A DNA stretch of 64,000 nucleotides. It comes from Obrimoposthia wandeli (Eukaryota). Each line of letters begins with the position of its first letter. Position 1 is the first letter of the stretch. The notes under the pieces are model-generated. The model saw only the letters and a program-made list of their open reading frames with translations, ran no database searches and was not told where the DNA came from. The stretch is from the NCBI GenBank assembly GCA_977020255.1, contig CDROCS010002266.1:1-64000 (forward strand), given 5' to 3'. A program made the translations under genes and the position numbers. Of this stretch, positions 10,330-48,155 are shown piece after piece.

Positions 10330-10720
10330 TGTACACCAGCATAAGTCATACAGTCTCAACACTCAAGCTGCAACTCTGACCCAAATCATTTCCAGATTCT
10401 TTAGAATCCTTAAATCGACTACAGATGTCGCTAATGTATCTAGGTGACTCCTTTCCATTTACTTCGATTAGATACTTTCTTTCTGTTAAATATGACTTGA
10501 TAATCGAAAGATTCCACAGCAAATAGCATCTCTGATTCTGATTAGGTTATACCCAGACTAGATCATCTGGTTTCCATTGATGATTTTTCGATTAAGCATT
10601 GTCGTCATCCATTTCTTTTGCTTTTGTGAATCTCATTCTGGAATCATATTTGTATACCAACTTTGAAGGAACTTTATCACTTGGATTGATAGTATGTTTG
10701 TAATTAATGGTTTTCAAGCA
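10330..10720 (-). mobile_element. Gypsy integrase C-terminal remnant
   Basis: NPSDKVPSKLVYKY...QWKPDDLVWV*PNQNQRCYLLW...IEVNGKESPRYISD resembles the post-core GD-x-VWVK...W...V-NG-x-RH pattern of Gypsy integrase. Confidence 0.5.
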
Positions 10721-10845
10721 AGAATTTTAAGTGTGTAATTTTAAGTACACTGAATGTCTTATTCACTTAAACTTTCTAATATTCAAATGTGTAACTATTT
10801 CTAAATTTTGGGAGTCTTACATTCTCTTTTTCAGGTTCTCACGAT

Positions 10846-11110
10846 AGTAGTGGGAAGTGATGACTTCGACTCAATGCTATAGGTCCTCCCCAAGAGGAAA
10901 GATTCTTCCAAGTACGTATGCCGTTGCCACGGAAACTTCGTGTGCGTTACCATTATTACCAATAAATACACGGTTGCCATGGTGTGTGTATGTGCGTCAC
11001 CACAGGAACCATTTTCCCGATTACGTTATGATCATTCGAAGGTCATTTCAAGGGCACTCTTTCGTATAAACGTATCAGTAGGGAGAAGTGATGACTTCGA
11101 CTCAAGGTTA
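10846..11110 (+). mobile_element. Two tandem Polinton-like left termini (10846 and 11077)
   Basis: AGTAGTGGGAAGTGATGACTTCGACTCAA at 10846 and AGTAGGGAGAAGTGATGACTTCGACTCAAGG at 11077. The same motif starts element B at 37357. Confidence 0.65.
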
Positions 11111-11789
11111 AAGTTTCCCCCTCCCCCTAGCGAAAACTCGGTTTTTATTTTAAAATTTGCGCAAAACGTTTTGCTTAAAATTTAAAAAAAAAATTTATTT
11201 ATGGCAGATGTAGGTCAAAGTCAAATTTTTCCTGAGTACACATGATATTTTAAGGTCAAGGTCATTTAAAGGTCATTATGTACTATAAGCTACTTTAAGC
11301 TAATTTTTGTTTGAATGCATCAATTTTGTTTGACACGTATTCAAATTTCGGTTGATTTAGGGTGTCTTCAGTCAATTTCTGAAGGTCATTCTCAATTAAG
11401 GTTATAATTTTTTAAATGACATATGATTTTAAAGTCAAGGTCATGACCTAGTATTTAAAAAGTTCTTTTGTTTTAATACATCAATTTTGATGCACGCAAA
11501 AAACATATTTTCTGAAAAATATTTTAGAAACTTATTTAAATAAATTTCAACTACTTTTATTTGAGAGTAAAAAAAGTTTTATAAATGTTAAACTGAATTT
11601 TTTATTTTGTATAATTGAATCTTCTTTATTTGTGAGTAGAAAAAGTTTTGTAATCTTAAGCTATTTATTACACATAACTTGCAAAAGTACATTTTTAAAC
11701 CTATGAGTTAATTAAAACAAGTAAATAGAGATAAAGAGAGATAGTAAAGAATAATTTTTATTAAAGATACATACATTGTCATCATACAC

Positions 11790-12260
11790 CTTCATATCTT
11801 CACAATATCATAATCTTCATTACTTCGATCCATCATCATTACCGCAATCCTTCTTCTCATCAATACAATTCTTCGTCATAATCCAGCATCTTCATTTCAT
11901 CAATCCATCATCGTAATCATCTATCTTGTCTTCATCTTAATCCTCCATCTAATTCAACATCTAAAAATATTTATTTACAAAATAATTATCACAATCTTAT
12001 CTGGAAATCTGACATCAATTCATCTCATCATCTTCATTATCGCAATTTCTCATCTCATCATCTTCATTTCCGCAATCCATCATCTTTCATCGCAATCATT
12101 CATCTTGTCTTCATCATAATCTTCATCTCATCATTGCATTCCTTTATTGTCTTCATCTTGTCTTCATCAGCATATAATCTTCATCTTCTTCATCTTCATC
12201 ATCTAAAAATAATTATTTACTAGATAATTAAGAAAAACTTACCTACAATTAGAAATCAAT
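11790..12260 (-). pseudogene. Acidic D/E-rich gene with two 40-nt introns (copy A)
   Basis: Minus-strand intron 12203-12242 (GTAAGT...TTTTTAG) and a paralogous intron at 11961-12000 with its donor mutated to AT. The flanking exons are GAT/GAA-rich. Confidence 0.55.
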
Positions 12261-15207
12261 TCATTATTAATCGCTATATTGTATTTTCAATTTTATTGTT
12301 GATTATTTTCAAAATTAATTAGTTAAAACAAAATCAATTATGTTTTAAATTACTAATATAAATAATTGAAAATATTTATTAAGTTAAAATAGTTAATATA
12401 TTTTATTTGTTACTTAAATTACTAATAATATAATTTGAAATATTTATTAATTATAATAATCAATACATTTTAAAATATACATTTTAAATATACATTTTAA
12501 AATAAACATTTTAAAATATGCAGAGAAATATATATATTATGTATTGATTCATACATGTTCATAGAGGGAAATTAACAAGGTGTTTACAGAGGAGAATTCC
12601 CCGAGAAGGATTATTTAATGATACTATTCAATTGTTTATCCGTTGAAGCTCGATTCTAATTGATTGATAATGTTGTTTATGTAAATCTCTTCGTATTAGT
12701 CATATCCTTGAAGGCTTACATTCCTCGCTTACACACGTAGTCCTTGTTATTGTTTCACTTACTGGATTAATATTTTCTCTATGATTATTTCTATTATAAT
12801 TCATATTAGCATATAAATTACTACCAGAACCAATATATGATAAGCATAAGACCATCTTAGAAGAAATTTACGAAATGTTCAAAAAAATTGTGCTATTTTA
12901 CGAGGAGTTCAGGAAATTTATGATATTTCAAAGATTAAACAGGGTGATGGTTTCAGAAGAGAAATTAGAGGGTTTTACAAGCAAATTCAAGCATACATAT
13001 TAATAACTTAGAAGGACTTTAAAAGAGATAATATTATAGAAAACAAAGTGTTGGTTCAGAGATGATACTAGCCAGATGGTTCTGGAAGATAAATTTAAGA
13101 TATTTTGCTGGTTACGAAGTAATTTTAGGAAATGTGTAATGTTTAGAGGATATGGGAAACGGAAATTTGTGATATTTAGAAGATTTAACGAGAGTATTAC
13201 TTTCAGAAGAGAAAAATATGGGTTTACAGAGAGATTTATCAGAGGTGATGGTTTCAGAATAGAAATATATCATGTAAAGGGGTGCAGAGAGTGATTTAAG
13301 ATGTTTCAGAAGAGGAAATGATATAGAAAACAAATTCACCGTCCGAAGGAGATATTACCTAGTTGCTTCTAGAAGAAAAAATTGATGATACGTTTGCAGT
13401 TAAGAAGTAAATTCAGGAAATGTATGATATTCCGAAGATATGGGTAATATAAATTAACAAGGTGTTCAGGAAATTTATGATATTCGGGTTTAAGCATAGA
13501 TGATTAGCTAATTTTCTTCTACTTAATCCCTCAACCTTCGTGAAATTATCTACTTAACCTCCATACTATTATTCTCTTCTTAGAGGAGATATTACAAGAT
13601 TTGTATTATTCTAAGAGGACATTACCCAAATACATATCTTTATCGATATTTCTATCATAAAGATGGGATACATGATTCGAATCAATAATTTAGCTGTAAT
13701 ACCCTCTGATATAATTCCTATATTAAGTCGCAGTAATTTAGGTAAAGATAATCAGAGTATGTCTCGGTTAGAGTATTAGCAGTCAACCTGTCAGGGTAAT
13801 TCGAGATATAATTTCCGCATACTTGATAATTGATTTATAGTATAACTCTTAAATTAATCCAAGGCCGTTGAAGAATCAGTTATATCTAAATAACCTATCT
13901 TTATTTGATAATTTTTATATAAATGCATTCCCACTGAAGCCGATAAGTTATATCTAATGTCTGTTAAATAACGAGTCTCTGAAATTGAGGAGTTAGAAAT
14001 TATTATGAATTATAGGAAAATGGCTAAACCGATGCTAAAGTGAATTATTAATAGACTTGTATCGATATTTTATGGAAAGTTGTGATATTTAGATAGCTCT
14101 AGAAGAGACATTAATGATATGATCAGGAAATTTATGATATCTAATCCGACCCTAAAGTGATTTATTGACATGCTTATATCAATATATTCAGGAAATTAAT
14201 GATTTCCCTAGGAAATCCACCGTATTAAGGTGCTTCTAGAGGAGATATTTAGGGAACAGCATACATTGATGGAGTGTGTATTTGATTCAGTTTAGTAGTT
14301 TTAACGGAATTTACTCCATATGATGATATCAGTGACTATTCTCCAATCAATAACTTCCAGCAAAATTTGATCAATATGATGGTGAAAGTATGAATATCTT
14401 AGATTTATTTATCGGATGTATGTGCAGATGAGTTTACATCAAGAATACCTCCGATGATAGAATGTCTCCAAGTAAGATATTATCATAGGTTTGCGTAGGT
14501 TTTCATATCCTTACAGTTAAAATACCGAAAGCTACTATGGAATTGATCCCTGTGTGCTGCTTGAAGAAGGTATTTACGGTGGAAGGACATTTATCGACCA
14601 ACATTACTAACTCTGAAGGTGAATATATTTTGATAACCCACAATTTTCACCAGACGGAGATTTACCCATATCAATTAGATGGAAGTATATGTAAGTAACC
14701 CGAATGAATTACATGATATACTTGAAAATCTTAGAAAATAATATTGGAAGACTTTATTATACAAAGAAGACTGCTCTGATCATTTTGCTTGCAAGAAGCT
14801 CTAGAAGAGAAATTAGGGATATTTAAGAATTTTTTAGGAGAAATATTAATGATATATCTAGGAAATTCATGATATTTAAGTGATTCTATAATAGAAATAT
14901 ATGTTATCTTCATGAAATCTTTGGTATATAAGTGATTCTAGAAGAGAAATGTATAATATTCTAGGGAAATCATCGATATTTAAGTGCTTCTAAAGGAGAA
15001 ATTAATGATATGTTTATCTAATTTGATATATTTAGAAGCTTCCAGTGTGATTCCATTGGCCTTTTAACTCATCATTCAAAGAAGTATCCCTCGGATTGCC
15101 GCAGATGTAGGCTAGATTTCATACATAGAAGATACCACTGTATAAGGGCGAACTAAGGAATTTGATTATTATAAGTCATTTAAGATGATTAGAGCTTAAT
15201 TTCGTGG

Positions 15208-15412
15208 ATGTTAGGAAAATCTCATGGAAGTTAGGGTAATCCCATGGTAGTTGAGAGGAAAATCTAATACTAGTTAGGGAAATCTCATGCTAGTTAGGAA
15301 ATCTTGCAGTAGTTAGGGAATTCTCATGGAAGTTGAGAGGTTTAAGGAGGAAAATAACGTGGTAGTTAGGATAATCTCATGGATACTAGGAAAATCTCAT
15401 GGATGTTAAGTG
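15208..15412. repeat. Degenerate ~20-bp minisatellite, GTTAGGGAAATCTCATGGWA
   Basis: About 9 imperfect copies; related units occur at about 44070-44150. Confidence 0.75.
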
Positions 15413-16159
15413 GTTTAAGAGAAAAAATATAACAATTATTAGGGTTTAAGGACAGAATAGCATATAATCAGACCAATATAAAACCTACCTCTTTCATTAA
15501 AGCAGTCATAGATGGATGTTTTTTAAATAACAGACATAATTTGACATTACTTATACATCAATGTTGATTGATTGAAATATTCTACATTACAGTTGTTTAA
15601 CTTTAAACATTTTGTTGTAAAAACTAAGATATTAAGACTTTTGAGTTAGATAATCAGGTTAGGGTGTAAAAGAAAACATTGGAAATTTTGTAAGAATGAA
15701 TCTAATAATCAATAAATCGAAATATATCTATCCATATCTTCTAACATCTCTATCATGAATCTTCTTTCAAAAACTTTCATCCCTAACTTTCAGAGAAATT
15801 AACAAATACCATAAATTCATATATTTCCATACATATTGATTATTGAAAAACTGAAATTATCAATATTATCAACATCTAATCTCACTATCATCAACCATCA
15901 TACAATTTTTTATTTACATATAACAAATATTTAAAAGTTTTTAAGGCTTTTAAGGCTTTTAAGTTTTTTGAAAATTTTGAAAATTTAAAGAAAAATAATT
16001 TTTCAAATTTTGACTTTGAAAATTTGAATTTTCGCGGATAAATATTGATGCATTTAAACAAAAATGACGCATTTTAACAAAATAATGGAATGACCTTGGA
16101 ATGACGTTAGAATGAGCGTGATGTACTCGGGAGAATTGGTTGCCGGGGAATGGTTAGTG

Positions 16160-16365
16160 TTAGGGATATGGCTTAGGGTTAGGCTTAGGGTTAAGCTTGG
16201 TTAGATTTAGGGTTAGGAATATGGCTTAGGGTTAGGCTTAGGGTTAAGCTTAGGGTTAGATTTAGGGTTAGGGATATGGCTTAGGGTTAGGCTTAGGGTT
16301 AAGCTTAGGGTTAGATTTAGGGTTAGGGATATGGCTTAGGGTTAGGCTTAGGGTTAGGCTTAGGC
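16160..16365 (+). repeat. Telomere-variant array with a 55-bp higher-order period
   Basis: Unit TTAGGG TTAGGG ATATGGC TTAGGG TTAGGC TTAGGG TTAAGC TTAGGG TTAGAT; GGGATATGGC recurs at 16271 and 16326. Confidence 0.95.
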
Positions 16366-16419
16366 TTAAAGTTTTTGAATTTTTATTGATTTACGAATCA
16401 CCACCAATATAGACGTAGG

Positions 16420-16837
16420 CACCTCTAACCTATAGGTCCCCCGAGGGACAACCACGTGACGGTGTTTCAAGCACTGGGATATTTGAGGATTGTTGTGTCC
16501 CAATATTACCGGAGGAACATCGTTATCGTCGTTTGGTACCGGCTCTTTGCCATCCATTTGGTCTAGGTTTCAAACCAAACTTTCTCTAAAATAAAATTTA
16601 CACTATTCTGACCTATACCATACTAAATTAGTTTTAGGGACTTTCCAGTTATATTGAACATAACTCTCTACACATCACATCAACTACAAAACATTAAAAG
16701 AAACCTTCAGATTTGAGACTAGAATTAGGTAAGATAATAATATGTAGGCCACAAACATCTGTAAGCCCTATCGCTACAGAACTCACGTTGAGGGCCTCTA
16801 TGCGATGATCTATGAGTTTCAATTAGAAAACCCAATA
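16420..16837 (+). mobile_element. LTR-family 3' fragment
   Basis: Homologous to 50634-51040 (AACCTATAGGTC..., TAGGCCACA..CATCTGTAA.CCCTATCGCTACAGA.CTCACGTTG) and to the right ends of LTR copies 1 and 2. Confidence 0.75.
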
Positions 16838-17044
16838 TATGTGTACTTCGCAGACCTAAGTCGGTTGGTAAAGTTGGTAAATAACTATTAAGTAAACGAT
16901 GTTTTGATGATGTATGCTTTAATTGCTGGCTTGCTCGTGAAGATCAAGTCACAAATACGGACAACGTGTTCAGTGGAAAATTTGAAGTTGAGTGAGGTGG
17001 TATGCCGCGCAAGATATCTTGTTAAAACCGATGCGGAAGTGTGA

Positions 17045-18390
17045 TTGGTGTTGATAAATCGCAATAAATTCGCAAATAACACGTCTGCAAAGTGTCCAGT
17101 AACAAGAAAACAAATGAAATTTTATCGGTGTGGTGAAGAAGGTCATGGTAGTCGAGAATGCACAGTAGCTGAATGTCGAAAGTGCTATATTTGCGATGAA
17201 GTTGATAATTTGTCACTGGAATGCCCAAAGAAAATTAACATCGATGACAAGTTTGAAATAAAACTGAAATGTGGTGTAATTTTCGCTAGTGACACCTCAG
17301 AGAATTTAGTGCATCTTCCAGTAGTTATTGTAGAAGTAGACGGTCGTTTGTGTAAAGCATTGGTGGACACTGGATGTTCACGAACTGTTGTTTCGTTGGA
17401 AATATTTTCCAACAAGAAGGAAGGTGGAGGTCAACTGAGAGTAACAAAATGAACAGCGATAGTATAGTGTGTGGCTTAGAGATTTGATGTTGAAAGTCGA
17501 AAGTTTAAGTGTGAAATTGGACTTTTTGAAGTCACCGATTTTGAGTGGATTTGATGTGCTCCTGGGCATGGATGTGATTGTCAAGTGTGGTGGTATAGAA
17601 GTTGGTGTCGAACAAAACGTCAAATTTGGGATGAGTGATATGGAGTGTGTTGTAACAGAAGAGAAGGACATGTCGATTGTAGATAAAGACTTTACTATTG
17701 ATTTTCGAGATGAAAGATGGGTTGCGAAGCGGAATTGGAAAGATAGCGTCCAAGATCCACAGTTGAGAAATATGGTGTCACAATGCCGTATACAGGATGA
17801 GGGAGTAGTTGGAAAGTTCGAAGCAGAAGTTGAGGAATGGATTGCAGCTGGTTGGTTAAAACTGTATGGTGGTTAGTACTATGGCCTTATTCCTTTGATG
17901 GCCGTGGTGCAGCATAATAAAGGTGGGAAAGTTCGACCTGTGCTGGACTTCCGTCCACTCAATGATTTTGTATCCAGTCGTACGATCCAGGGTGAGGTGT
18001 GTGGAGGAAAACTGTGGTCGTAGAGGAGAATGGGTGTAAAGCTTAGCATAGTTGACTTGAGAAAGGCTTATATACAAAGGAGTCCAATATTGCCTGACAC
18101 GGTTAGGGTTTGGTTTGAATATAGCACCCAAAATCATGTCTGCGGTGGTGAATAAGTTGTTGTCGATGAACGAAAATGTTGCACGAGGTACAGACTCCTA
18201 TGTTGACGATGTCATTCTGAACGAGGCGGTGGTGACAAGTAATAGTGTGCGAATTTTATTGCAAGATTTAAACTGGAGTCAAAGGAAGCGGAACCGTTGT
18301 CTGGAGATCGGATACTTGGGTTAAGAGTATTCAATGAATCTGGTCACATGCATTGGAAGCGGGATACTGTATTGATGAAAAATGACAGCA
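17045..18390 (+). mobile_element. Gypsy-like gag-protease-RT remnant
   Basis: Zinc knuckles YRCGEEGHGSREC and CYICDEVDNLSLECP, protease ALVDTGCSRTVV, and RT motifs KVRPVLDFRPLND, LRKAYIQ, IAPKIM and YVDDVIL. Multiple frameshifts and stops. Confidence 0.9.
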
Positions 18391-18639: not shown

Positions 18640-21130
18640 CATCTGGATATCGGTGATGTCCGTAGGCAACTAACCGGTTTTTCTCTAACTCATTTTATCT
18701 TATCGTCATTGCTACTCAATGCGATCTTACTCATATTTACGGTATAGAGCTGATGATTAATTGAACTAATGCGTTGTTGTTGCACTCGTTCACTAAACCA
18801 CTTCTCATTTGCAGCTAAATAATTCGCATGGCGTAGTGCAGTCTGCTTAAGGCTAATTCCCTTTGCTCTCATCTGGGACTTTCCGTCTATAGTTTCTAAG
18901 CTATATGATTTGGGGCGTAAAAATACCCATTGCTTATATCTAGAGACACCCTTACTCTCATCATCAAACTTGCCTATCGCAGTATTGGCTAAAGTAAATA
19001 AAGGATGGTTTATAGGAAATTTCGATGTGTCTAATAACCCATCCTAAATCATTGCTGGCAACAGTGTAGCTTGCACATCTACATTATCACGCTTTAGAAA
19101 AGAGCTATCAGTGTCACCAGCAATTATTCGAATGTCGCAATTAAACTGACATCTATATTTCTCTAATTGAACATATTGAAGCTCATACATCCTTAACTTA
19201 CTTAAATCCAGAACTGCCTGGCCAATATAACTAGGACGATCTAAAACGACAGTTTGCATATTTAGTAAAACAGTTATTCGTTAGTCGATTTCCATCGTAC
19301 TACGGAATTGGGCCTTACTACAATATGTAACAAGCTTTTGTGGTGTATTACAATTACGGATGTAAATTCTCTTCATTAAATTCTCTATTTTCTACTTACC
19401 AAACAGAGAAATAACCTTTAATTTATAATATTCACGCTCGAAATCATTTGCAGCACTTGCTCTTTTCGCGGAATTATCCTCAATATACTTTGAAAAAACA
19501 TTAGTTTGTGCAAACTGTATTTCTCTATGTACATAATCTACTTTCGCACCAAGTCTTATGTACATTTGAAGCAATCTGGAATGTACAATATAATGCTTTT
19601 TAGGGTATTGAGTCAGAAGTAATTTTGGTTGTTTACTACCAATAGAGCATTCCTTTCGCGGAGCTAAGGGGAGATCGTCTAGTTTATCGTGCAGCTCTTT
19701 AGGAATGGATAAGTCCACCTCCATCAAATGAGCAAATCTACTACAACTTAAATCCTTAAATGAGAGCTCGGAAATTATACCCCTAACTCTAACTGATCAG
19801 TTACCCACTTAAAATCCCCACAAGGTAAAAATATTGACATGGCCCATCCATAAAGATTATTTACATCGATGTATAATAGCTCACAACCATTCACTGTATC
19901 AACCTTGTGCTCGTTGACAAATATCATTCCTCCTCTGATGCCTTCACGAAATAGGGAGTACATCTCTCGATCTTGAACGAATTCCACTTTGATCTCATGA
20001 GGTGATGAAGTAGAAAGAAGCAAAGACTTGAAAGCGCTCGCGAAAGATAATCCTGGGAAGAAAAATAAATTAAAGATTTTTAAAAGAATTGTTACTAAAT
20101 ATTACAGAAAATCGATTACTGAAAATGATTACTAAAATTTACTAAAAAAATTTACCAGGAATCGAGAAGAAGTTGAGCGGTCATAGCCTGAAATATCTCA
20201 GTTGATTGGGGTATTATTGATATATCCCAATGCGAAAACTGAGTTATCGCATGCTTAAGGATATGATTCAAATCGTATCCTCTCAAGTTATGAAAAATAA
20301 CAGGAAAAGAACGATTTATTCTACGTGATAAATTACACTTTGAATGTGATACTCCAAGGTATTTCCCAGTCATATGATCGTGATCCCGGACCTTGTTAAC
20401 GCAGCGCTTATTACACAGGTAACAAGTAGTAGCTGCATGGAAACTAGCTACTTGCTCCGGTGTTAGCGCGCACATTACTGCAACAGCATGATCTCGATAC
20501 CATGGAAGAACAACATCCCTAGCCAACTCCTCCAATTTTTAAGGAAAGACACCACACAAGATTCTCCTGTGAAAAAAGAGTAGTCCTGTGTAAATTCATT
20601 TGAAGCAGATGTGATTGGAGAAATCAGCATACCGGTCGCAATGGGCAGATGCATCTGATGATGAATACCATGCGGCGGCAAAACTGTCTCGAAGTCGGCG
20701 TAAACGGAAAACAGAGGTGATACCGTTTTTCTACAATCAGTAAAAGCGATATATTTATTCGAAGGCATCTGATAGAGAGTCGTATGCTCCTTGTTCATTG
20801 TGCATGTGCATGAGCCTCGTGCTTGGCATAACTAACTGGATTCATAAAGCCATGAAGACACTTATGGCACCAAGTACACCTAATTCGAGTAGCAGGTCCC
20901 TTATTCCGAAAATTTAGTAATTTGCTTAGTTTAGGAACCGCCACATTATGAAAACCAGAATTATTTTCTAAAAGAAGAAGATTTACTGGTGAGCTGCTGG
21001 GATTTGTGGTTCGGTATATTACATCAATGAATGGATTTTTGAAAATTTCTTCATTGGGAGGAATACAACCGAAATTATTTTAAAAAAATACGTACATTGA
21101 GAGTTTAGGATTCTCCCTCTCAAATCGAGG
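18640..21130 (-). pseudogene. Protein-primed family B DNA polymerase (Polinton pPolB), decayed, with an internal deletion and one intron
   Basis: In order on the minus strand: FERENPKLS, WCHKCLHGF, VYADFET, KVRDHDHMTGKYLG, FHNLRGYD, PGLSF, GIRGG, LYIDVNNLYGWAMS, ENLMKR, LDRPSYIGQAVLDLSK, GDTDSSF, AKGIS and KIALSSNDDK. GT-AG intron at 20053-20155. Confidence 0.93.
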
Positions 21131-21794: not shown

Positions 21795-22466
21795 AACGTT
21801 TAAATTGAAATTGATTTCGATCAAAATGATTAATAATATTATAGCTGTGTAATCTATGTATTAAGAGTATTGGGGATCATATGCCGGCTAGAGGAGGTAC
21901 TGATGCGGGACAGTACTTTTATGCATAGGGGCACATATAAATGTAGTGCCCTTGAAACGGAATGGCACAGGAAAGGACGCAATGGAGGAGATTCAGGAGT
22001 GATATGGGTTAAAGGAGGAGAGTTTCTGGTTACAACGACAGGGAAGGAGAGTGGAGATGGGGAGAGCATTGGTGATGGCAGCAATATTGTCGTGATGATG
22101 AGGTTGAAAGGGGGAATGTAGGAGGAAAACAACGTTTAAATTGAAATTGATTTCGATCAAAATGATTAATAATATTATAGCTGTGTAATCTATGTATTAA
22201 GAGTATTGGGGATCATATGCCGGCTAGAGGAGGTACTGATGCGGGACAGTACTTTTATGCATAGGGGCACATATAAATGTAGTGCCCTTGAAACGGAATG
22301 GCACAGGAAAGGACGCAATGGAGGAGATTCAGGAGTGATATGGGTTAAAGGAGGAGAGTTTCTGGTTACAACGACAGGGAAGGAGAGTGGAGATGGGGAG
22401 AGCATTGGTGATGGCAGCAATATTGTCGTGATGATGAGGTTGAAAGGGGGAATGTAGGAGGAAAAC
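21795..22466. repeat. 336-bp tandem duplication, apparently identical copies
   Basis: 21795-22130 repeats at 22131-22466; the ORF track shows identical 83-aa ORFs at 21870 and 22206. Confidence 0.95.
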
Positions 22467-25400
22467 AATGAGAGAGCGGAGAGGGTTACGAAGTTGGATA
22501 TAATATTGACTTGGGATGAATGGACGGAAGCACGGAATACGGAAGAGGATTCAGACAAGAGAAAGAGGTATAGGGATATCGTACGAAGATTCAGTGACCA
22601 GAAGAACAGAGAGTTAGAGCAGGCGGTGGAAAACAAAGACCAATTCAAGATAAAGGAGAAAAAGAGTGAAATAACAAAAGCAGAAAAGGAATTTGAGGTT
22701 AGAACCACAAAAGAGTCAAGAGAAAATAAAAATCAAGAATCAAGAGAAAATAAGTCAGGCCAAAATGTGTGGAAGGTACTAAAAAAGATTAGTATCCCGT
22801 ATTTCTTTGATTGAAAGTTGGAGGGCAATATTTGGTACTGTGATCGCTCAGACCAATGCGCCAAAGCAAGAAAAGATGCTGCAGCTGATGGACTATGTGA
22901 GGCGGGAACCTTACAGGTTAATTCAAAACCTTGGGTTCAAGGATGCAAGTTACGATGAAGCTTTAAGATTGCTAGAAGAAAGGTACGGAGGAAGGGAAAG
23001 AAATTATAGAGGTTTGATGGACGAAGTTGAAAAGTTTAGAGTGATAAGATGGAGAGAAGACCAAGATCTGGAAGCCTTATACAATTAATAAACAAGATAG
23101 TAATCAGAGCAAGAGAAGAAGACAACAAGGGTGATCTTGGAAATGGGATTATGTTCAACAAGCTGTTGAGGAAGTTGCCAATTTTAGGAGTGATGGATTG
23201 GACGAAGTGGATCCAACAAAACGGGGAGAAAGAGAATGTATGTACGTTAAAGATATGGGCCCAGCAAGAAAGTGAGAATCCAAGAAGAGCCAATGAGGTT
23301 AATGGAAGTCGTGAGAATCAAAGAAGGCGAGCCAGTGACGTTGAAAAACCCAGGAGATGGAACAATGACACACGTCATTACACTCCACATTATTTGTGAA
23401 TAGTAAAGGAAATGGAAAACGGTTATAAACCAGTCCACAAAAGTCGAAAGAAAGGCATAATGTGCAAAATGTAAAGCCAACCACTATACTGATCAATGTG
23501 AGCAGATTAAACAGTTGACAGTGGCAGCGAGGCAGAAGTGGGTCAAGAGAGAGAAAATATGCAAGAATTGCTTACGCAGTAATCACACGGTGGAGAAGTG
23601 TAGATTTAATCAGTTATGTCGGACATATGGATGCCACGAAAAGAATCACTAGTTCTGCATGATAAAGGGGGGCAAAGAATAGTAGGTCAAACAATGGTAA
23701 TAAAAGACCGACAACAGAAGGCACGCGCATTCAAAGCGTTAAGGACAGTGCCAGTGATATTAAGAAGAAAAGGCATTGAAACATGTGCGAACGCACTTTT
23801 AGATGACGCTAGTACCCTATCATATATAAGTAAGGAATTAGCTTGCACTTTGAGAGCACGAGGTACAAAAATAGAACTACCTGTGGGAGTTATTGGTGGT
23901 GAGGTGTGTAAGTTAGACTGCGAAGAGATAGAAATTAGCAGCAGATATGGGAAAATTAAACGAGTAGTAAAGATGTTGACGCTAGAGGAAATTGCTGATA
24001 GTTTAGAAGTGATAAACTGGTCTGAAGAATCATCTTACTGGCAACATTTAGCAGGTATTGAATTTTCGAATTCAGAGTCCCAGAAGAAGGTGGATATACT
24101 GATTGGAGCTGATAACCTCGACTTATACCGATGTATTAAAGAAGTAGTAGGTCCACATGATGCACCAATTGCGAGATTAACACCACTAGGGTGGACATGT
24201 GTTGGACGAGTAAAAAGACAAACGCAGTCAATCAATCGACATGTGCTATACACTATTCAGTAAGGAAGAAGTTGATATAGATTTAAGACGATTCTGGGAA
24301 GTTGAATCTGTTCCTGACGGAAATAGGAAGATAAATCACGATGAGTCTCAATTGCTACACTTATCAAGAGCAGAAGTGGTACATGAGAACAACTGCTATG
24401 AAGTCAAGTTGCCATGGAATGAGAAAAAAATCCGAAATGCCAATGAATAGCTCCATGGTCAAAAGAAGGTTAAATAGTCTCATCCGAAAGTTGGATAAGG
24501 ATCGTTTATTAAAAGACGACTATTCAACGGTAATAGAAAATTATATGACTAAAGGGTACATAAAAAGTTAACGTTAGATGAAGAGAAAGAAACTAAGTGG
24601 TTACTACTTCACTTCCCAGTGATAAAACGGGGGAAAATACAACAAAAGTTAGATTAGTCTTTGACGCAGCGGGAAAAAGTAATAATATGAGTCTAAATGA
24701 GGCAATCCATTGTGAACCCAAGTTCCAAGGAGACCTTATAGCAATTCTTCTGCGATTCCGAAGGAATGCAATAGCATTAGTATGTGACATTTCAGAGATG
24801 TACTTACAGATCAAGATATGTAAGGAAGACCGGCCATGGCTAAGGTTCTTATGGAGAAATAGAGAGAACCAGAGGAAAATGTATGAATTCCAGAGAGTAG
24901 TCTTTGGAATAAACGCCTCACCGTTCTTGGCTCAACTGGTAACCAGAGTAAACGCAGAAAATTTTAAAGTGAAGTATCCAAGAGCCAGTGAGACAATTTT
25001 GAAATCAACTTACATGGACGATAGTCTAGATTCAGTGTCTTCAGTAACCGAAGCAGATAAGCTAAAAGATAAGTTGGTGGAAATATGGGGGAATGCAGGG
25101 ATGATTGCAAGAAAGGGGATTAGCAATAGCCCAGAGGTTAATAAAAAATACCCCTTTCAGAAAGAGCAAATGTCTTACATATAGATGACAAAGAGTGTAA
25201 CTTAACAGTAAAGACATTAGGCGTACACTGGGATGCTAAATCCGACAAAATTTTCATAGTGACAAAATTTGAAGAAGTCGACGACATAACCAAACGATCT
25301 TTCTTAAGTCTTTTATCAAAAGTGTTTGATCCATTAGGTTTTGTTAGCCCGATAATCATCAGAGCCAAAATTATTATTCCGGAAGTCTGTCTTACAGGGT

Positions 25401-29088: not shown

Positions 29089-30617
29089 ATGAACTTCAAA
29101 TTCAGCGTAGACGCATTACTTAGCAACAGCTACCATATCGAAAATAGGCAGGACAAACGTAAGTAAAATTAAGTTTCATCATAATGGTAAATTTCGAAGG
29201 ATTATTAATTAATAATTTTCTGGACTTCATCTTGATTTATATAATTTTTTTTACGACAGTAAAACAATAATTATGCAGCAATTAGCTATCACTTATATTG
29301 TGTTAAAATAAATGTATCATGTACATTTCAGTTATTGTAACCGTAATCTTAATATTTAAAAAGAGCATATTTTATGAAATGCACGGGAAAATTCCTTAAA
29401 GTTAAATAAAGAAATCGTGTTTAACAATAATTTGTTTTATATTTGATAAAAATAAATATATAATTTTTATTTCATAAGTTTATTATTGGGTTTATTTAAA
29501 ACATATTTTTGTCATATATATAGAAAATGAAAAAATATGATTGTATAAATATATTGTATAAAGGCAATGCAAATTTATTTTTAACATATTTTAAAAATTT
29601 TAAATATTTTACAATCTCATCAAAATAGAACTCTAAAAATATGTAAAATTATAGTTAAATTTAATATCATGTTATCTTTAAATTAATTTTATTTTGGATG
29701 AAATAATTTCAAAAGCTCTAACCAAAAGGCCCAGTAAAAATTGAAATAATATGAACCCTAATTATTGAGTAAATAGCATATAATTTAATATAAACAAAAC
29801 AAAAACTTACATTATTTATATGTACACTTAATATACAAATTTAAAAAATAGAACGATAACAATATACAAAAATATATTTTCCTTTCATTTATAATTTACC
29901 ACAATATACTCTTTATAAGTAAAATTTATTTTTATTTTGTAATCGGAATGTAAAACTATTTCTAATATTTTATTTTCCTAGCAGGGAAAATTATTATGCT
30001 GCGCTGTGTAATTTACCTAAATAAGCAGCTACAATAATCCCAAAACACTTACAGTTACAACAAACTGAAAAAAATGAAATTTATTATGAATTGGTATGTT
30101 AATTTAATTGATTTTTTGAATTCGATTCTTTTTCTAACATCTGTGAGTTGCTGTTAATTGGGAATGTCGCGCAGTGAGCATATCTAGCGAAGATGAGGAA
30201 CATGCACTGACGTCGTCATCGGTAACAACAGCGCTTCGAGTCCCACCACAGACGCCAACCTGTTTGACAGATGGCCTAGGCAGCTACTGCTCAACGAAGA
30301 AGAAGCAGCGGAACCTCTTCACCAAGAGCCAGACCTCGATTCTAAGACAGTACTTCAATAAGAAGAACTACATTTCTGCCGCAGAGCGAGAGGCTCTCTC
30401 CATCACGACCAATCTCAGTCCGGAACAGATCAAGATCTGGTTCCAGAACAACCGCTACAAGATGAAGAACAGCTTTAGTTTCCGGGCGCAACGACACGGA
30501 CTTTTAGTGGCCGGGGCAGCCGGCCTGCGGTACCATAACCATAACCATCACCATCACCACCACCAGCAGCAGCATCAACCTATGCAGCATCAGGTGGGTA
30601 CGGGCCTCACTCTTTAG
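29089..30617 (+). CDS. NK2-class homeobox transcription factor, join(29089..29158, 30175..30617); the 3' end may splice at 30593
   Basis: Exon 1 reads MNFKFSVDALLSN (TN/eh1-like) and ends C|GTAAGT. The acceptor GCAG|TG at 30174 restores the phase. The homeodomain at 30297-30476, KKKQRNLF...IKIWFQNNRYKMK, has the NK2-diagnostic Tyr54. His/Gln-rich tail. Confidence 0.88.
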
Positions 30618-35590: not shown

Positions 35591-37703
35591 GAAAGACATT
35601 TTCTAAAAAACTCGAATTAAATGTTAATCCTAATACTTACTGAAAAACAAAATAATTTGACCTTCAATAAATACTTTTTAGTTTAAATAAATATCTACCT
35701 TTAGAATTGTTATTGTTACCCTGTATTTATCTCTTGTTTGTTCTTAATAGTGACTGGAATTATTGAATTTTTGAGTTGACGTTCCTCACTCCCACGCCTG
35801 TGCTGCTGTTTGATGAGGGTATTGATAGTTCACCAATGTTCTTAAAGGACGCTTTGACGGCGAACAAGGTCAACTATCATCTGGCGACCTTGGGGCTGTT
35901 GGGAGTTCAAGGTCACAGTCAAGCGGATTCAGTATGTGGAGCTGTGACTGCTGGGTGGCGGGAAAGACTCAGCGACTGCTTCTCAAAGATGCAGCAACAC
36001 CAAGACGGGCCCAGTAACGCCAGGCAGCAGTGGTGTGACCTTCTAAGTGGGCCTCAGAACCCTCTCGAGCAGCCCGGCATCGGCAAGATATACCCCCTTT
36101 CCAGTTGGATGTGACTCAGCCGAGACTTGAGACAGATTTGTGATCAAGATTTGTATTATACCACGCTTTATTTTACCTCACGATTTACTCCATCGCGACA
36201 TTCTGTGAGTTTTTGGGCCCTTTTAGAATAGAAACATCTAATCAATTGTCCTCAACGTTTGTGTGAATATTTTTAAATAAAAAAATCTCTCAATAATATC
36301 ACTAAATTATTGTTATGAAAGTAAATCAATTGCATATTTAACTGTCTTTAGTATTCAATAATCAACATATTTTAGGTTTGCAATATTTAAAGACTTTTTC
36401 TTCCGAAAAATGATATATTTTCACATTTATCAAAATTAGAAGTAATAAAATTATGAAATACAACCTAGCAGTTTGGTGGTGGCATTTTAATTATTTGCAA
36501 TTGAACGAATAAAGTGCTAAGAATATTATTTGTTGTCGTTTCGGGTTAGAAAATGTACGAAAGTTAAGCTTTTGTTACACAATTGTGTATATACAAAATA
36601 ATTGATTTTTATTAATTAAAATTAAAATTTATTGAAGTCAAAATCAGGAATCAAGATAGAGTAATTTTAAAAAAAGTGTATTAAAATATTATTAATTATA
36701 TTTACAATTTTCAATAATTTTAAAATGCAAAGTCTAATTAAAATAATTACTTAATTAAGTTGCATCTAAATATATAATTTTGTAAAATACTTTACAAAAA
36801 AAAAGTTAGGAAATATTTTGTTACTGCTAAACAAAATACGAAAAAGGCAAATATAAACAAGAATTAAAATTAAATGACTGATATTTATAGTCTGAGTCAA
36901 GGACGGGTAAATTAAATAATTTCAAAGTAAAATAGAAATAATCTACACGAAAATTAATTTAAAACTAATTAACCTTAGGTGACATCTGCAACAGAATAAA
37001 ATTTAGTCACCTGAGGCTGACTGAGCGATAGAGTTAATCGACCGATTGTCCCAGAGACTTTTGAAAATTGTGTCCATTGATTGTCGGACCAATGAAACAG
37101 GAAGCAGAAAGATGTCTTAAATGCTGAATGATGCGATTTGTAAAGGATGAACCAATTCCAGACAGAATTTCAAAAATTGAGACGATAAGCTAGACAGCAA
37201 CAATCCCGGACAATCTATGTCATTTTCCCTTCTAAACTCTTGCCAAATTGTTAATATACATGCTTCTAAAACCCACTAATTCCTTCTTCTGAAAAATCTT
37301 AAATCCCCATCTGAAGCTGTTTACCGGTTATATTTCTCTTCTGAAACAAACCCATCAGTAGGGAGATATGATGACTTCGACACAAAGGAAAAGGTATCCC
37401 CCGGAGGAGGGAGAGGGGGAAATTATCCCGAGTACGTCAGCGTTCCCATGGCAACCAACACGCACACCTTTGCCATATGTGTGTCTTCCCATGACAACCA
37501 ATTCTCCCGAGTACGTCAAAGTTATTTGAAGATCATTCTTTTGTTTAAACGCGTCAAAATCATTTTTGTTTAAACGCATCAATATTTGCGCGCGCCAAAT
37601 TCAAATTTTCAAGATCAAAAATTCAACAACAAAAGAATTTCCAAATCTTATTTAAAGAAATTTCAACTACTTTTATTTGAGAGTAGAAAAAGATTTATAA
37701 ATT

Positions 37704-40591
37704 TGTTAGGTTTAGGTTCTGAAATAAATTAAATAATTAATTGATTTTATAGGGAAATAGAAATCCTTGAAAGCAAAGTTAGAATTAAATAAATTTAATA
37801 TCAAAATTAAAATTGATGAGATTTAAAATTGTAATCAAATATTTAAGGACCACGAAGGTCGTGTGTGATGCGTAAGTATTTATAAAAGTTAATGTTAACC
37901 AAAAGGGCCCCAAAAAAGAAAAGATTAAACACAAAAACGAAGAGAAATCAATTAGAGGCAGCAATACAGAGAATTAGAAGCAACAATTTAGAAGAAGAGA
38001 GAATCAAACCCATTATCGCGAACATTATTGCTAACTGAATCCATTAGCGCCACTTAGCGCTAGACAAGTCATACCGTCGAAGAAACGTTGAGGACAAGCA
38101 AAATCGCGAACTGAATCCATTAGCGCCACTTAGCGCTAGACAAGTCATACCGTCGAAGAAACGTTGAGGACAAGCAAAACGCCAACCGGATCACAGACTG
38201 CTCCGGAGATAGAAAATAGTAAGTGCACTTAGCTAAGTGCCATTAATTGATTTTCCTTGAGAAGAATTTAGTAGAATCCTATAAAAGCAAGATTTGGACT
38301 TGCAGGCAACACAACGGAATCGCACAACTGAATCGAGACACAAATCGAAATCGACTGGGAATAAGGAGTCCAGATAGTAAAAGAAGATATCGTTAGCTCG
38401 TGAAAACAGGAATCGAAAAGGCAAAGCGGATCGACAGACAAGCAGGATCGACAGAGAAATTTCGGCTCTGGATTGCGCCCTGAGTTTACGTTCGGAATCG
38501 GCGTTTCTAAAGTCAACTACAAAGTAAATAATATTGGTGAGATAGAAATCTTAAAGTAAAGTTTTTATATCAATTTTCAAATCTTAAAGTGTGAATCATT
38601 ATATCAATTTTCAAATCGTAAAGTGTGAATCAAAGTAAAGAATATTGGTGAGATAGAAATCTTAAAGTAAAGTTTTTATATCAATTTTCAAATCTTAAAG
38701 TGTGAATCATTATATCAATTTTCAAATCGTAAAGTGTGAATCAAAGTAAAGAATATTGGTGAGATAGAAATCTTAAAAAGTAAAGTTTTTATATCAATTT
38801 TCAAATCTTAAAGTGTGAATCATTATATCAATTTTCAAATCGTAAAGTGTGAATCAAAGTAAAGAATATTGGTGAGATAGAAATCTTAAAGTAAAGTTCT
38901 TATATCAATTTTCAAATCTTAAAGTGTTAATTATTATATTAATTTTCAAATTGTAAAGTGTGAATCAAAGTAAAGAATATTGGTGAGATAGAAATCTTAA
39001 AGTAAAGTTTTTATATTAATTTTGAAATCTTAAAGTGTGAATCATTATATCAATTTTCAAATCGTAAAGTGTGAATCAAAGTAAAGAATATTGGTGAGAT
39101 AGAAATCTCAAAGTAAAGTTTTAATATCAATTTTCAAATCTTAAAGTGTGAATCATTATATCAATTTTCAAAATCGTAAAGTGTGAATCAAAGTAAAGAA
39201 TATTGGTGAGATAGAAATCTCAAAGTAAAGTTTTTATATCAATTTTCAAATCTTAAAGTGTGAATCATTATATCAATTTTCAAATCGTAAAGTGTGAATC
39301 AAAGTAAAGAATATTGGTGAGATAGAAATCTTAAAGTAAAGTTTTTATATCAATTTTCAAATCTTAAAGTGTGAATCATTATATCAATTTTCAAATCGTA
39401 AAGTGTGAATCAAAGTAAAGAATATTGGTGAGATAGAAATCTCAAAGTAAAGTTTTGATATCAATTTTCAGATCGTAAAGTGTGAATCAAAGTAAATTTT
39501 CGAATCTTAAAGTGTGAATCAAAGTAAAGTTTTGATATCAATTTTCAAATCGTAAAGTGTGAATCAAAGTAAAGTTTTTATATCAATTTTCAGATCGTAA
39601 AGTGTGAATCAAAGTAAAGTTTTTATATCAATTTTCGAATCTTAAAGTGTGAATCAAAGTAAAGTTTTGATATCAATTTTCAAATCGTAAAGTGTGAATC
39701 AAAGTAAAGTTTTTATATCAATTTTCGAATCTTAAAGTGTGAATCAAAGTAAAGTTTTGATATCAATTTTCAAATCGTAAAGTGTGAATCAAAGTAAAGT
39801 TTTTATATCAATTTTCGAATCTTAAAGTGTGAATCAAAGTAAAGTTTTGATATCAATTTTCAAATCTTAAAGTGTGAATCGAAGTAAAGTTTTGATATCA
39901 ATTTTCAAATATTAAAGTGTGAATCAAAGTAAAGTTTTGATATCAATTTTCAAATCTTAAAGTGTGAACCAAAGTAAAGTTTTTATATCAATTTTCAAAT
40001 CTTGAGGTGTGAATTGGAGTTTCTGTATTGTATCAAGAGTACAGAAGGTGTCCAGATTTAAAGTGAAGTTTCTATATCAAAATTAAAGAAAGTTTTTTAT
40101 TTTTAACTAGAGAGTTGATAATCTCATTTCGAACAAAGAACTAAGAATACATTAAAATAAGGGTATACTGCCCCAAAATTGTCTTTAAAATCTAGAGCAC
40201 CCGCTCTCTAAAATCAATCCCTATCTTTAGAGTAAAGACTCTAGTGAAGAAAAAGCATAACCTTAAAATCGATACGTGGTTCATCCCCACTTGTGTAGAG
40301 ACTTACAGAAGTCTTAGGAATTACTGTAACTTTTTAGAAATACGTACGTAAACGTATTGTTTTTTTTTAGTCTAGTGTTAACAATAACCGATTTCCTACA
40401 TTAGAAAGCATTGTTCTAAACCCTTCAGATTAAGAGACATCGGAAAACAAACACCTTCAGATAAGCATTGAGACAGGCAACTATAACATTAAGTAGGCCA
40501 CAACCATCCTTAAGACCTGCTTCTATAAGAACTCACGTTGGGGCCCTCCACATTCAAGAGGATCTATAAGTTTCATATAGAAACCCCAACA
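37704..40591 (+). mobile_element. Solo LTR-like element, copy 2 (2888 bp), with AATT target-site duplication
   Basis: TGTTAGG...CCCCAACA is flanked by AATT (37700-37703 and 40592-40595). The uninterrupted site is visible in element A at about 11581-11595. Confidence 0.88.
38521..40005. repeat. Compound tandem array: ~111-bp unit x9, then ~45-bp unit x11
   Basis: TGGTGAGATAGAAATC recurs at 38535, 38646, 38757, 38870 and onward. After about 39480 only the AAAGTAAAGTTTT(T/G)ATATCAATTTTC..ATC.TAAAGTGTGAATC subunit repeats. Confidence 0.95.
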
Positions 40592-40789
40592 AATTGTTAA
40601 ACTGAATTTTTTTTTTAAACTTATTTTGTATAATTGAATCTACTTTTATTTGTGAGTAGAAAAGGTTTTTGTAATCTTAAGGTATTTATTACACATAACT
40701 TGCAAAAGTACATTTTTAAACCTATGAGTTAATTAAAACAAGTAAATAGAGATAAAGAGAGATAGTAAAAAATAATTTTTATTAAAGAT

Positions 40790-44690: not shown

Positions 44691-44952
44691 AGATTGTTTC
44701 TTGCTTCTTCAATGCAATGGAATTGCTCCTCTTCTCTGATATTGCTGTCTTTTTCTCGATGTTTGTCAACATTGTGATCAGAAATAATGTCTGAATTGTT
44801 TATATTCTATCTAACCTCATCTGATTGGTTGATGATTTGTTTGGTTGTATTCATGAATGTATGTTATTATTACTCATTTTGTTTATATCTCGCGAGAGAT
44901 CTATATAAAGATATATGAATAAGACATAATGAAACTCTCAAAATATAAAGCA

Positions 44953-45033
44953 CCCTAACCCTAACCCCGCCATAGCCCTAACCCTAACCATAACCCTAAC
45001 CCTAACCCTAAGCCATACCTCTAACCCTAGCCC
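44953..45033 (-). repeat. Telomere-variant (CCCTAA)n array
   Basis: CCCTAA units interrupted by GCCATA, the same interruption seen in the reverse complement of 16160-16365. Directly followed by the subterminal block. Confidence 0.93.
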
Positions 45034-45163
45034 TCATTCCAAGGTCATTCCAATATTTTGTTTAAATCTGTCATTTTTGTTTAAATGCATCAATATTTGT
45101 GCGCGCTAAATTCAAATTTTCAAGGTCAAAATTTCAAAAATTATTTTTGCCAGATTTTCAAAA

Positions 45164-45688
45164 TTATTGTTTAGCAGCATCATGAAATGAATCAACTAGA
45201 AAGTTCTTTTTTGGGGGAAATGCCTGTTTGGCCACGAAATCTACAACTGTTTGATCTCTAGGATTTTTAAATAAAACTAAGTAATGTACATTAAGATTTC
45301 TTGTTCTATGGTGACCTCCTTGGTGAAAAAGGTTTTGAGTGATAAATATAAATGTTACTTCACGATGTCTTGCAATCATTGTAAATAAATTATTAAAGTC
45401 CGATTCCTTGTTAGCTTCATGATACAAATCATCAATTATTATTACATCTTCTTTTTTCAATCTTCCACACCAATTTGCATCAAATCCTTCAATAAATTTT
45501 ATTCCCTTCAACTTGTAAACTTCTGTTTTGGTTAATCCGCTTTCCCCTCCTCCACCATGATACCAATAAATATTTTTGAAACTAGATTTGAAAAGAGATT
45601 CATTTTGCAACAATTTACATACGAAATGTGTCTTTCCACTTCTACTGGGACTAACTATTTGAAATACAGCATTATTATTTAGCTCCAT
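45164..45688 (-). pseudogene. Polinton FtsK/A32-like DNA packaging ATPase, 3' truncated
   Basis: Walker A VSPSRSGKT (degenerate), Walker B IIIDDL, and LFTMIARHR, ITQNLF and LVLFKNPRD. The frame stops at the junction with the subterminal block. Confidence 0.9.
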
Positions 45689-46026: not shown

Positions 46027-46593
46027 TCATAGAATAGATAACAAGATGTAATAAGATATATTATCTAAAATCGAATCAACAATGTCTGGATAATCAAAAT
46101 TTTTCAATCCCAATATCATAACTTTACCACTGGAAAATATATTTACACATAGCGGTTTAAACTTCAAATAACTGAGAACAGGAAAAATTTCTGGTTCAAA
46201 CATGCATTCTTCTTTCATTTTCTCTGCAGTTTTAAAAAGATTTACTTGTTTCTCGAGATTAGCTGAAATTGTGAATGATTGTATTGCGCTGATTCGTATT
46301 CAAAATGGTAATTCGAACTCAAGCAAAGGTATTTTACATCCCATAACACGACAACTTCCTAAAAGAATTCAATATGAAAATAAAATAAAAAAGTAACCTG
46401 AACGAAAAATAACAACTGTGAAATTGTCAAATCTTTTCACATATTGTCTCGGCTTCCATTCATTGAATGGTAAGTACAAAACACCATCTTCTATTCTACC
46501 TTTATAATTTATATTTACGAATTTCATTAGACTAAAATTGTATTCTATAAATTCTTCTTTATATATGTCTGAACCTGCTTTTTTATTGCACAT
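46027..46593 (-). pseudogene. Divergent TATA-binding-protein-like gene with a 39-nt intron and one nonsense codon
   Basis: Repeat 1 reads TVVIFRSG|SCRVMGCK after removing GT-AG intron 46359-46397. Repeat 2 reads MFEPEIFPVLSY...VNIFSSGKVMILGLK, compared with TBP YEPELFPGLIY...LLIFVSGKVVLTGAK. One TGA lies in PF*IRI. Confidence 0.75.
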
Positions 46594-47705: not shown

Positions 47706-48019
47706 TTTAATAAATGTTTAGAAATTAATTTTGACTCGTATTTTGTTTTTCTTCTCTAAATTATATAGATCTGACCTATTTTTTCTACTATAAATCTGAC
47801 CTAGATATTTATAAAACCATGTATTAATTTATTAATCTAAAATCTTTCTTAAAAATAGTAGTAATATATTAACATGAACATATTATTTGAAATCTCGTCT
47901 GTGATAAGCCGCCAGGGCCAATATGGATTCCCGTGGTCTTCTCTAATCACCTTTGAAATTAGTGGTAAATTTCAAAGTAAAATAAAAAATTAAGGGGGGA
48001 ACATCCCTTTCTTCGGGTG

Positions 48020-48155
48020 GAATCGACACACACATGCACGAAATTTCACTCCACACACATACACGAAATTTCACTCCACACACATGCACGGTTTTAAAGG
48101 ACAGTGGTAGCCCCCCGGGGGAGGGGATGGATTAGACCGGACACATCCACCTACT
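48020..48155 (+). mobile_element. Probable Polinton-type right terminus of element C (about 44953-48155)
   Basis: Subterminal ~25-bp repeats (CACGAAATTTCACTCCACACACAT), a G-run, and an end at CCACCTACT, loosely resembling the terminus at 9250-9294. Confidence 0.4.

What the first reader, a model, noticed from the sequence alone, without database searches (positions are those of the whole stretch)
15990..16365. Telomere-variant arrays built into the ends of Polinton-like elements
Seen: the same subterminal block (GTCATTCCAAGGTCATTCC...CATTTTTGTTTAAATGCATCAATATTT...AAATTCAAATTTTCAA) occurs, with variation, inverted at about 16000-16110 and direct at 45034-45150 and 37545-37625. In the first two it is flanked outward by TTAGGG-type arrays (16160-16365; 44953-45033). 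Both arrays have chromosome-end polarity relative to the element (G-strand 3' pointing outward) and share the GCCATA interruption, so they look inherited with the element rather than added by independent healing. The third copy has an AGTAG terminus instead. Established: telomeric repeats at mobile-DNA ends are known for HHV-6/MDV and ciliate TBE elements. Inference: a telomere-bearing Polinton subfamily whose linear ends may bind telomere proteins or favour telomeric integration.
Basis: partly seen in the sequence, partly recalled or inferred. Interest (0 to 1): 0.76.

Follow-up and report, generated by a model that had tools for sequence, protein, structure and literature searches.

The report
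Telomere-like minisatellite in broken transposon ends
Two broken copies of a virus-like transposon end in an animal genome carry an inherited, degenerate stretch resembling chromosome-end repeats, which looks like a repeat that grew inside the transposon end rather than a true telomere cap.

Summary
The block and both TTAGGG-like arrays are real, with the stated outward polarity. So 2 of 4 loci carry arrays and 2 of 4 carry AGTAG ends. The arrays look inherited: both repeat a TATGGC-containing unit (55 and 43 bp). That motif also sits at the matching place in the AGTAG copy, so it is a family motif. They are not telomerase-like tracts (at most 2-3 perfect repeats in a row). Neither array is shown to be a native end: no TSD, no matching partner end, ragged edges, and array A stops where another repeat begins. 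At B the block cuts the packaging-ATPase gene at residue 173 of about 210. Contigs from four runs (one sample) mostly continue into the rest of that gene instead. Best reading: a telomere-like minisatellite variant of a Polinton-type end family, preserved as fossil fragments at breakpoints. A telomere-capped Polinton subfamily is not excluded (about 13%), since no genome was available and the read tool skipped the array.

The parts
16152..16368 (+). Array A: TTAGGG-like minisatellite, 55-bp unit x3.9, G-strand pointing outward (right)
16105..16151 (-). Spacer between block A and array A; holds a 20-nt stretch identical to AGTAG-ended copy C
   Evidence: (I18)
15973..16104 (-). Block A (inverted copy)
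15908..15972 (-). Probable inner extension of end A; joins family interior at 15907, where a 97% match to 42944-43213 stops
   Evidence: weak match to C inner flank, 70 of 3000 window-null and 52 of 2000 shuffles
16372..16831 (+). Unrelated repeat starting at the outer edge of array A (65% to 50578-51033; further copies elsewhere), upstream of zinc-knuckle and RT-like fragments
44952..45034 (-). Array B: TTAGGG-like, two TATGGC motifs 43 bp apart, G-strand pointing outward (left)
45034..45166 (+). Block B (direct copy); its inner edge is the break in the ATPase gene
45167..45688 (-). A32-like packaging ATPase gene, cut at residue 173 of about 210
46027..46299 (-). TBP-like ORF beside the ATPase
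   Evidence: Pfam PF00352 E 1.4e-10
47900..48155 (-). Candidate AGTAGG end of the ATPase segment; not similar to C or D
37357..37705 (+). End C: AGTAG start, CA-rich spacer with the family ATATGGC/GCCATA motif at 37472, then block C (37515-37630)
10846..11590 (+). End D: two AGTAG starts (10846, 11077) and two weaker blocks
11590..15907 (.). Gene-poor interior of the D copy, collinear with 40592-43213 of the C copy; no Pfam family found

Best explanation
The block belongs to a family of mobile-element ends that normally start with AGTAG, a Polinton/Maverick-type motif (copies C and D). In one lineage of this family the simple-sequence spacer around a conserved motif (ATATGGC in C, CCATGGC in D) became TTAGGG-like instead of CA-like. 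Slippage or unequal exchange then amplified it as 43-55-bp units that include the motif. A and B descend from that variant. Both are now fossils: deletions and nested insertions fused the end fragment to unrelated interior points (A at 15907, B inside the ATPase gene) and removed whatever lay outward of the array, a break-prone tandem tract. The arrays ride along passively and are not working telomere caps. Shown: homology, motif position, higher-order structure, breakpoints. Inferred: Polinton identity of the end family, the slippage origin, the loss of an outer AGTAG terminus.
For: ATATGGC lies 23 nt outward of the shared anchor in A and 16 nt outward in C; chance for a 30-nt stretch is about 0.001. 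C and D1 termini are homologous (0 of 2000 shuffles) with CA-rich spacers around the motif. Array A is a 55-bp higher-order repeat; only 45% (A) and 51% (B) of bases are in perfect hexamers, longest runs 2 and 3. TATGGC twice in 83 nt arose in 0.004-0.05% of 50,000 simulated arrays per setting (motif chosen after the fact). The ATPase stops at residue 173, at the block edge, and the rest is not in the window. Loose ends at 45167 occur in 4 of 4 runs (110, 124, 81, 62 contigs) and match the missing part of the gene; summed depth drops about 19- to 114-fold from ATPase to block. A's outer edge coincides with the start of another repeat, and B's outer flank partly resembles the family interior. 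Vertebrate Mavericks end in (AGT)2 or (AG)3 with 6-bp TSDs (PMC8097293 section 7 and passages); D1 starts AGTAGT.
Against: Both array-bearing copies (2 of 2) lose homology right at the outer edge of the array (outward flanks unrelated: 1000 of 3000 and 1284 of 2000 null scores as high), as expected if the array were the true end. The whole-array A-to-B score is only borderline against independently mutated arrays (93 of 1500). No Polinton core gene was found inside C or D (one weak pPolB-like 34-residue match picked by eye, E 3e-4 pairwise). C and D2 start AGTAGG, not (AGT)2. The four runs are one sample, summed contig depth is not a copy number, and the tool skipped 44952-45023, so what lies outward of arrays in other copies is unseen.
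Confidence: 0.5

Rival explanations
1. One broken AGTAG-family end was healed by telomerase once, probably at a chromosome end, just outward of the ATATGGC motif. The proximal repeats then degenerated and amplified, and this end-plus-telomere piece was copied to internal breaks by double-strand-break repair or ectopic recombination.
For: G-strand polarity is outward in 2 of 2 copies. Both copies sit at breakpoints in other DNA. The hexamer matches TTAGGG exactly 16 and 7 times. Polinton-like viruses and virophages were often near telomeric repeats in a protist (bioRxiv 10.64898/2026.07.28.741278, passages).
Against: Telomere-like letters lie on the inner side of the first TATGGC in both A and B, which needs an extra duplication and deletion. 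Polarity is a one-in-two chance for a single origin. The host's telomere repeat was not determined.
Confidence: 0.2
2. A Polinton subfamily really ends in telomere-like repeats. These cap its linear DNA, bind host telomere proteins or guide integration into telomeres.
For: Homology between A and B ends at the array in both copies. D to A has the geometry of a left end and an inverted right end around 5.5 kb. Precedents exist in other classes: TBE TIRs (PMC4724952 passages) and HHV-6 terminal repeats (PMC10175614 passages).
Against: No TSD at D/A, B/48155 or C/48155. No element has arrays at both ends. D blocks match A at only 66-75%, against 93-96% for TBE end pairs. The edges differ in register. 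The ATPase family mostly lacks the block at that point. Both copies lie amid nested mobile DNA, with a homeobox ORF and an RPB1 gene in the same window. Protein-primed replication and integrase need a fixed terminal motif (own knowledge), which these ends lack.
Confidence: 0.13
3. The end family is not Polinton at all but another non-autonomous DNA element (a cut-and-paste type or a host subtelomeric repeat) that merely lies among Polinton debris.
For: No core gene inside C or D. The ATPase link is a break. No block lies beside the pPolB fragments. The 48155 end is unlike C and D (609, 347 and 324 of 800 null scores as high). C and D2 share three letters before AGTAG, so the true start could be offset.
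Against: Three copies align from the same AGTAG start without gaps, and D1 has the (AGT)2 motif reported for Mavericks. Tests for short inverted ends around A or B alone were not significant.
Confidence: 0.14
4. The junctions or array lengths are assembly artefacts.
For: No listed contig piece spans the whole B region.
Against: Two distinct copies have diverged but related arrays, and A's four units differ from one another.
Confidence: 0.03

Closest known systems
Polinton/Maverick terminal inverted repeats (vertebrate set, PMC8097293; passages and section 7 read)
   Same: AGTAG(T) start in C and D; a few hundred bp of end sequence; A32-like ATPase and pPolB fragments in the same window; mostly eroded copies.
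   Different: No matched TIR pair, no 6-bp TSD, no core genes between ends. A and B carry TTAGGG-like arrays where the AGTAG part should be; the word 'telomer' does not occur in that paper's main text.
Oxytricha TBE (telomere-bearing) Tc1/mariner transposons (PMC4724952; passages read)
   Same: Telomere-type repeats at the outer part of an element end.
   Different: TBEs have a short fixed telomeric motif at the very tip of both TIRs, a TSD and 93-96% matched ends. Here the arrays are 83-217 bp, degenerate, ragged and unpaired.
HHV-6 and tarsier endogenous herpesvirus telomeric repeats (PMC10175614; passages read; MDV recalled only)
   Same: TTAGGG-type arrays, including imperfect ones (imperfect arrays recalled), next to viral-type end sequence.
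   Different: Those viruses integrate into telomeres through the repeats. These copies are internal, with at most three perfect repeats in a row and no sign of telomeric integration.
Terminon/Athena retroelements truncated by telomeric repeats (PMC6431247; passages read)
   Same: Short telomeric tracts at truncation points of mobile elements in nested arrays.
   Different: Those are reverse-transcriptase elements with hammerheads. No ribozyme family reached threshold in 10500-17000, and the tracts here share a family motif.

Membership tests
Polinton/Maverick element | 5' (AGT)2 or (AG)3 terminal motif | tested here: inconclusive
   D1 starts AGTAGT; C, D2 and the 48155 end start AGTAGG; A and B have none
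Polinton/Maverick element | Matched terminal inverted repeats at both ends | tested here: not met
   D blocks vs A only 66-75%; 48155 end unlike C and D; B lies in the same direction as C
Polinton/Maverick element | 6-bp target-site duplication | tested here: not met
   No match for D1/A, D2/A, B/48155 or C/48155
Polinton/Maverick element | pPolB, integrase, ATPase, protease and capsid genes between the ends | tested here: not met
   No such Pfam family in 11600-15950 or 43200-45000. ATPase touches B only at a break. pPolB fragments at about 18.7-21.1 kb have no block beside them. 37700-43200 was scanned only for tandem repeats, ORFs and DNA similarity.
Telomere-bearing element (TBE or HHV-6 type) | Telomeric repeats at both termini of one element | tested here: not met
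   Each array is single and unpaired; A and B point away from different interiors
Telomere-bearing element (TBE or HHV-6 type) | Fixed terminal register shared by copies | tested here: inconclusive
   Only two copies; outer edges differ, and A's edge is the start of another repeat; array skipped
Telomere-bearing element (TBE or HHV-6 type) | Repeat equals the host telomere repeat; binding of telomere proteins or telomeric integration | not testable with these tools
   No genome held; host repeat not determined
Independent telomerase healing or interstitial telomeric insertion | Near-perfect hexamer runs with unrelated variants at each site | tested here: not met
   Longest perfect runs 2 and 3; shared TATGGC unit; whole-array test borderline, 93 of 1500

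The most novel reading that the evidence does not exclude
An animal Polinton-type lineage replaced its AGTAG terminus with a telomere-like array. It caps or targets its linear DNA with host telomere machinery, and A and B are decayed ends of that lineage.
Probability: 0.13. Interest if true: 0.72.

Novelty: new variant of a known kind. Interest (0 to 1): 0.3.

Why it matters
On the best reading it is a modest point: a mobile-element end can grow and spread telomere-like repeats, one route to interstitial telomeric sequence that does not need chromosome fusion or fresh telomerase action at each site. If a telomere-capped Polinton lineage existed, it would change how these protein-primed elements are thought to protect, prime and integrate their ends. 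I saw no such report in nine full-text searches (listings only, open-licence library).

Tried and rejected
No whole genome is held, so copies could not be counted or mapped to chromosome ends. Viral contigs: block pattern 0 hits, AGTAG pattern 0 hits, ATPase queries found no confirmed relative. The array pattern gave 2 isolated matches without arrays, taken as chance. Metagenome scan: 1 match, lacking the rest of the block, taken as chance. MITE reading: an apparent 30-bp inverted repeat around B was not significant (281 of 3000), nor around A (2305 of 3000). A short direct likeness on both sides of A (39 of 3000) is one of ten tests on AT-rich DNA and was set aside. Homology beyond the arrays: not significant. 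Missing ATPase part elsewhere in the window: not found. D-to-A as a palindromic element: no long internal inverted match. Ribozyme or RNA family in 10500-17000: 3 weak snoRNA matches, all below gathering score. Identity of B's left-flank ORFs: no homologue by word search; 2 weak phmmer hits, one repetitive and uninformative; direct comparison with the 46777 ORF not significant (E 0.21). ORF 45725-45982 as TFIIB: no support. No solved-structure match for the ATPase by sequence. Earlier-finding look-ups by place, sequence and strict words were empty. PMC3014272 (passages) gave nothing on AGTAG in Polintons. Supplements were not read for any paper.

Full report
Observation. A and B are 88.7% alike over 133 nt; C matches B at 92.5% over 67 nt. 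TTAGGG-like arrays lie outward of A (16152-16368) and B (44952-45034), with the G-strand 3' end pointing outward. They hold 16 and 7 perfect hexamers; none of 6343 windows of 83 nt elsewhere holds more than 2. C starts with AGTAG at 37357. So 2 of 4 loci have arrays and 2 of 4 have AGTAG starts.

Setting. The window is animal DNA by inference: a homeodomain ORF, an RPB1 gene, LTR-type and other retroelement fragments. D's interior (11590-15907) is collinear with 40592-43213 behind C. The D interior and 43200-45000 yielded no relevant Pfam family in six-frame read-through. pPolB fragments lie at about 18.7-21.1 kb and an A32-like ATPase with a TBP-like ORF at 45.2-46.3 kb. The host species and its telomere repeat were not determined.

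The arrays are not plain telomere tracts. A is a 55-bp unit repeated 3.9 times with 95% matches. The longest perfect runs are 2 (A) and 3 (B) hexamers, and only about half the bases lie in perfect hexamers. Telomerase makes perfect repeats (own knowledge), so a higher-order unit points to slippage or unequal exchange.

They look inherited. Both repeat TATGGC followed by hexamers, every 55 bp in A and 43 bp in B. Two such motifs in 83 nt arose in 0.004-0.05% of 50,000 simulated arrays per setting, though the motif was chosen after the fact. A test that used the whole arrays was only borderline: 93 of 1500 independently mutated arrays scored as well against A as B does. The motif is not special to the arrays. 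In A it lies 23 nt outward of a stretch shared with C, and C has the same heptamer 16 nt outward; chance is about 0.001. D1 has a related motif at the matching place. In C and D the spacer around it is CA-rich, in A and B TTAGGG-like. The arrays thus occupy the place of the outer part of the AGTAG-type end and keep one of its motifs.

Neither array is shown to be a native end. The flanks outward of A and B are unrelated (1000 of 3000 and 1284 of 2000 null scores as high), which would fit true termini. But A's edge at 16369-16372 is where another repeat begins (65% to 50578-51033), and B's outer flank partly resembles the family interior. No 6-bp TSD flanks D/A, B/48155 or C/48155. D and A face each other like two ends of a 5.5-kb element, yet their blocks match at only 66-75%, A being closer to B and C.

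The tie to Polinton genes is a break. The ATPase aligns to its homologues up to residue 173 of about 210 and stops at the inner edge of block B; the rest is not in the window. Contigs of four runs, all one sample, were laid on 44300-46400 at 80% likeness. In 4 of 4 runs many contigs (110, 124, 81, 62) leave the window sequence at 45167 and go on into the missing part of the gene. Summed depth falls about 19-, 59-, 114- and 112-fold from the ATPase bin (45223-45293) to the block bin (45081-45151). The candidate far end of the ATPase segment (AGTAGG at 48155, minus strand) does not resemble C or D. No block core lies near the pPolB fragments. The Polinton label for the end family therefore rests on the AGTAG(T) start, which matches the (AGT)2 motif of vertebrate Mavericks (PMC8097293, section 7), and on its neighbours. 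One weak pPolB-like stretch in D's interior (34 residues, E 3e-4 pairwise, picked by eye) was not confirmed by Pfam.

Mechanism. Most likely (0.5): a lineage of the AGTAG end family turned its simple-sequence spacer into TTAGGG-like units, amplified them with the family motif, was copied, and was later cut by deletions and nested insertions. Rivals: a single telomerase healing of a broken end, later copied to internal breaks (0.2); a non-Polinton end family (0.14); a truly telomere-capped Polinton subfamily (0.13); assembly error (0.03).

Comparison with known systems. It resembles Maverick ends in the start motif but fails matched TIRs, TSD and core genes, so these copies cannot be filed as Polinton elements, only as Polinton-like ends. 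TBEs carry a short fixed telomeric motif in both TIRs, which match at 93-96% (PMC4724952, passages). HHV-6 integrates through terminal telomeric repeats (PMC10175614, passages). Terminons are truncated by telomeric stretches (PMC6431247, passages). Virophages and Polinton-like viruses lie near telomeric repeats in Halocafeteria (bioRxiv 10.64898/2026.07.28.741278, passages). Nine searches (listings only) showed no report of telomeric arrays within Polinton ends; the library lacks most subscription papers, and no supplements were read. Earlier scan notes on gene-poor Polinton satellites and on a Polinton with TBP are leads only; D-to-A is not palindromic and no TFIIB was found.

Verdict. Observation confirmed; inheritance supported with one borderline test; the telomere-capped Polinton reading is unsupported but not excluded. 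New variant of a known kind, interest 0.3.

Noticed in passing
window 45167-46299 (-): A32-like ATPase next to a TBP-like ORF (PF00352, E 1.4e-10). Summed contig depth is very high across both in all four runs, suggesting a heavily amplified Polinton-like family with its own TBP-like gene; no TFIIB recognised.
   Followed up: partly
window 18690-21080 (-): Broken protein-primed DNA polymerase B with an endonuclease VII domain, directly after retroelement fragments and without recognisable ends.
   Followed up: partly
window 37279-37356: The DNA just outward of end C is an inverted piece of the family's own interior (77% to 13242-13319): these elements seem to nest into each other.
   Followed up: no
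window 10920-10990, 37440-37500, 11255-11450, 45034-45050: The end family repeats motifs resembling RFX X-boxes and AGGTCA nuclear-receptor half-sites (names recalled, not tested).
   Followed up: no
window 44382-44708 (-) and 46777-47163 (+): Both ORFs match one unnamed protein, P0122 (E 1e-9 and 0.003 within the window), hinting at distant paralogues on either side of B; direct comparison was not significant.
   Followed up: partly
window 55547-61821 (+): RNA polymerase II largest subunit, mostly one 1868-aa ORF at about 55% GC in AT-rich DNA, with a degenerate C-terminal repeat region in 21-, 63- and 84-bp units.
   Followed up: no
window 30147-30617 (+): Homeodomain ORF (PF00046, E 5e-18), NK2-like by eye, followed by a His/Gln run.
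   Followed up: no
window 21795-22468: Perfect 336-bp tandem duplication (100% identical); very recent or an assembly duplication.
   Followed up: no
window 38520-40014: 111-bp (x9.1) and 45-bp (x11.6) tandem arrays sharing a motif, inside an insertion that interrupts the C copy.
   Followed up: no
window 23000-27500 (+) and 17045-18324 (+): BEL/Pao-type retroelement remains (RT, DUF5641) and a zinc-knuckle/RT fragment set; the repeat at 16372-16840 recurs at about 7800, 21170, 40450, 48970 and 50580.
   Followed up: partly
window 15638-15907 vs 42944-43213: 97% identical while the rest of the D and C interiors match at about 79-90%: recent conversion or a younger insert, ending exactly where end A begins.
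   Followed up: no
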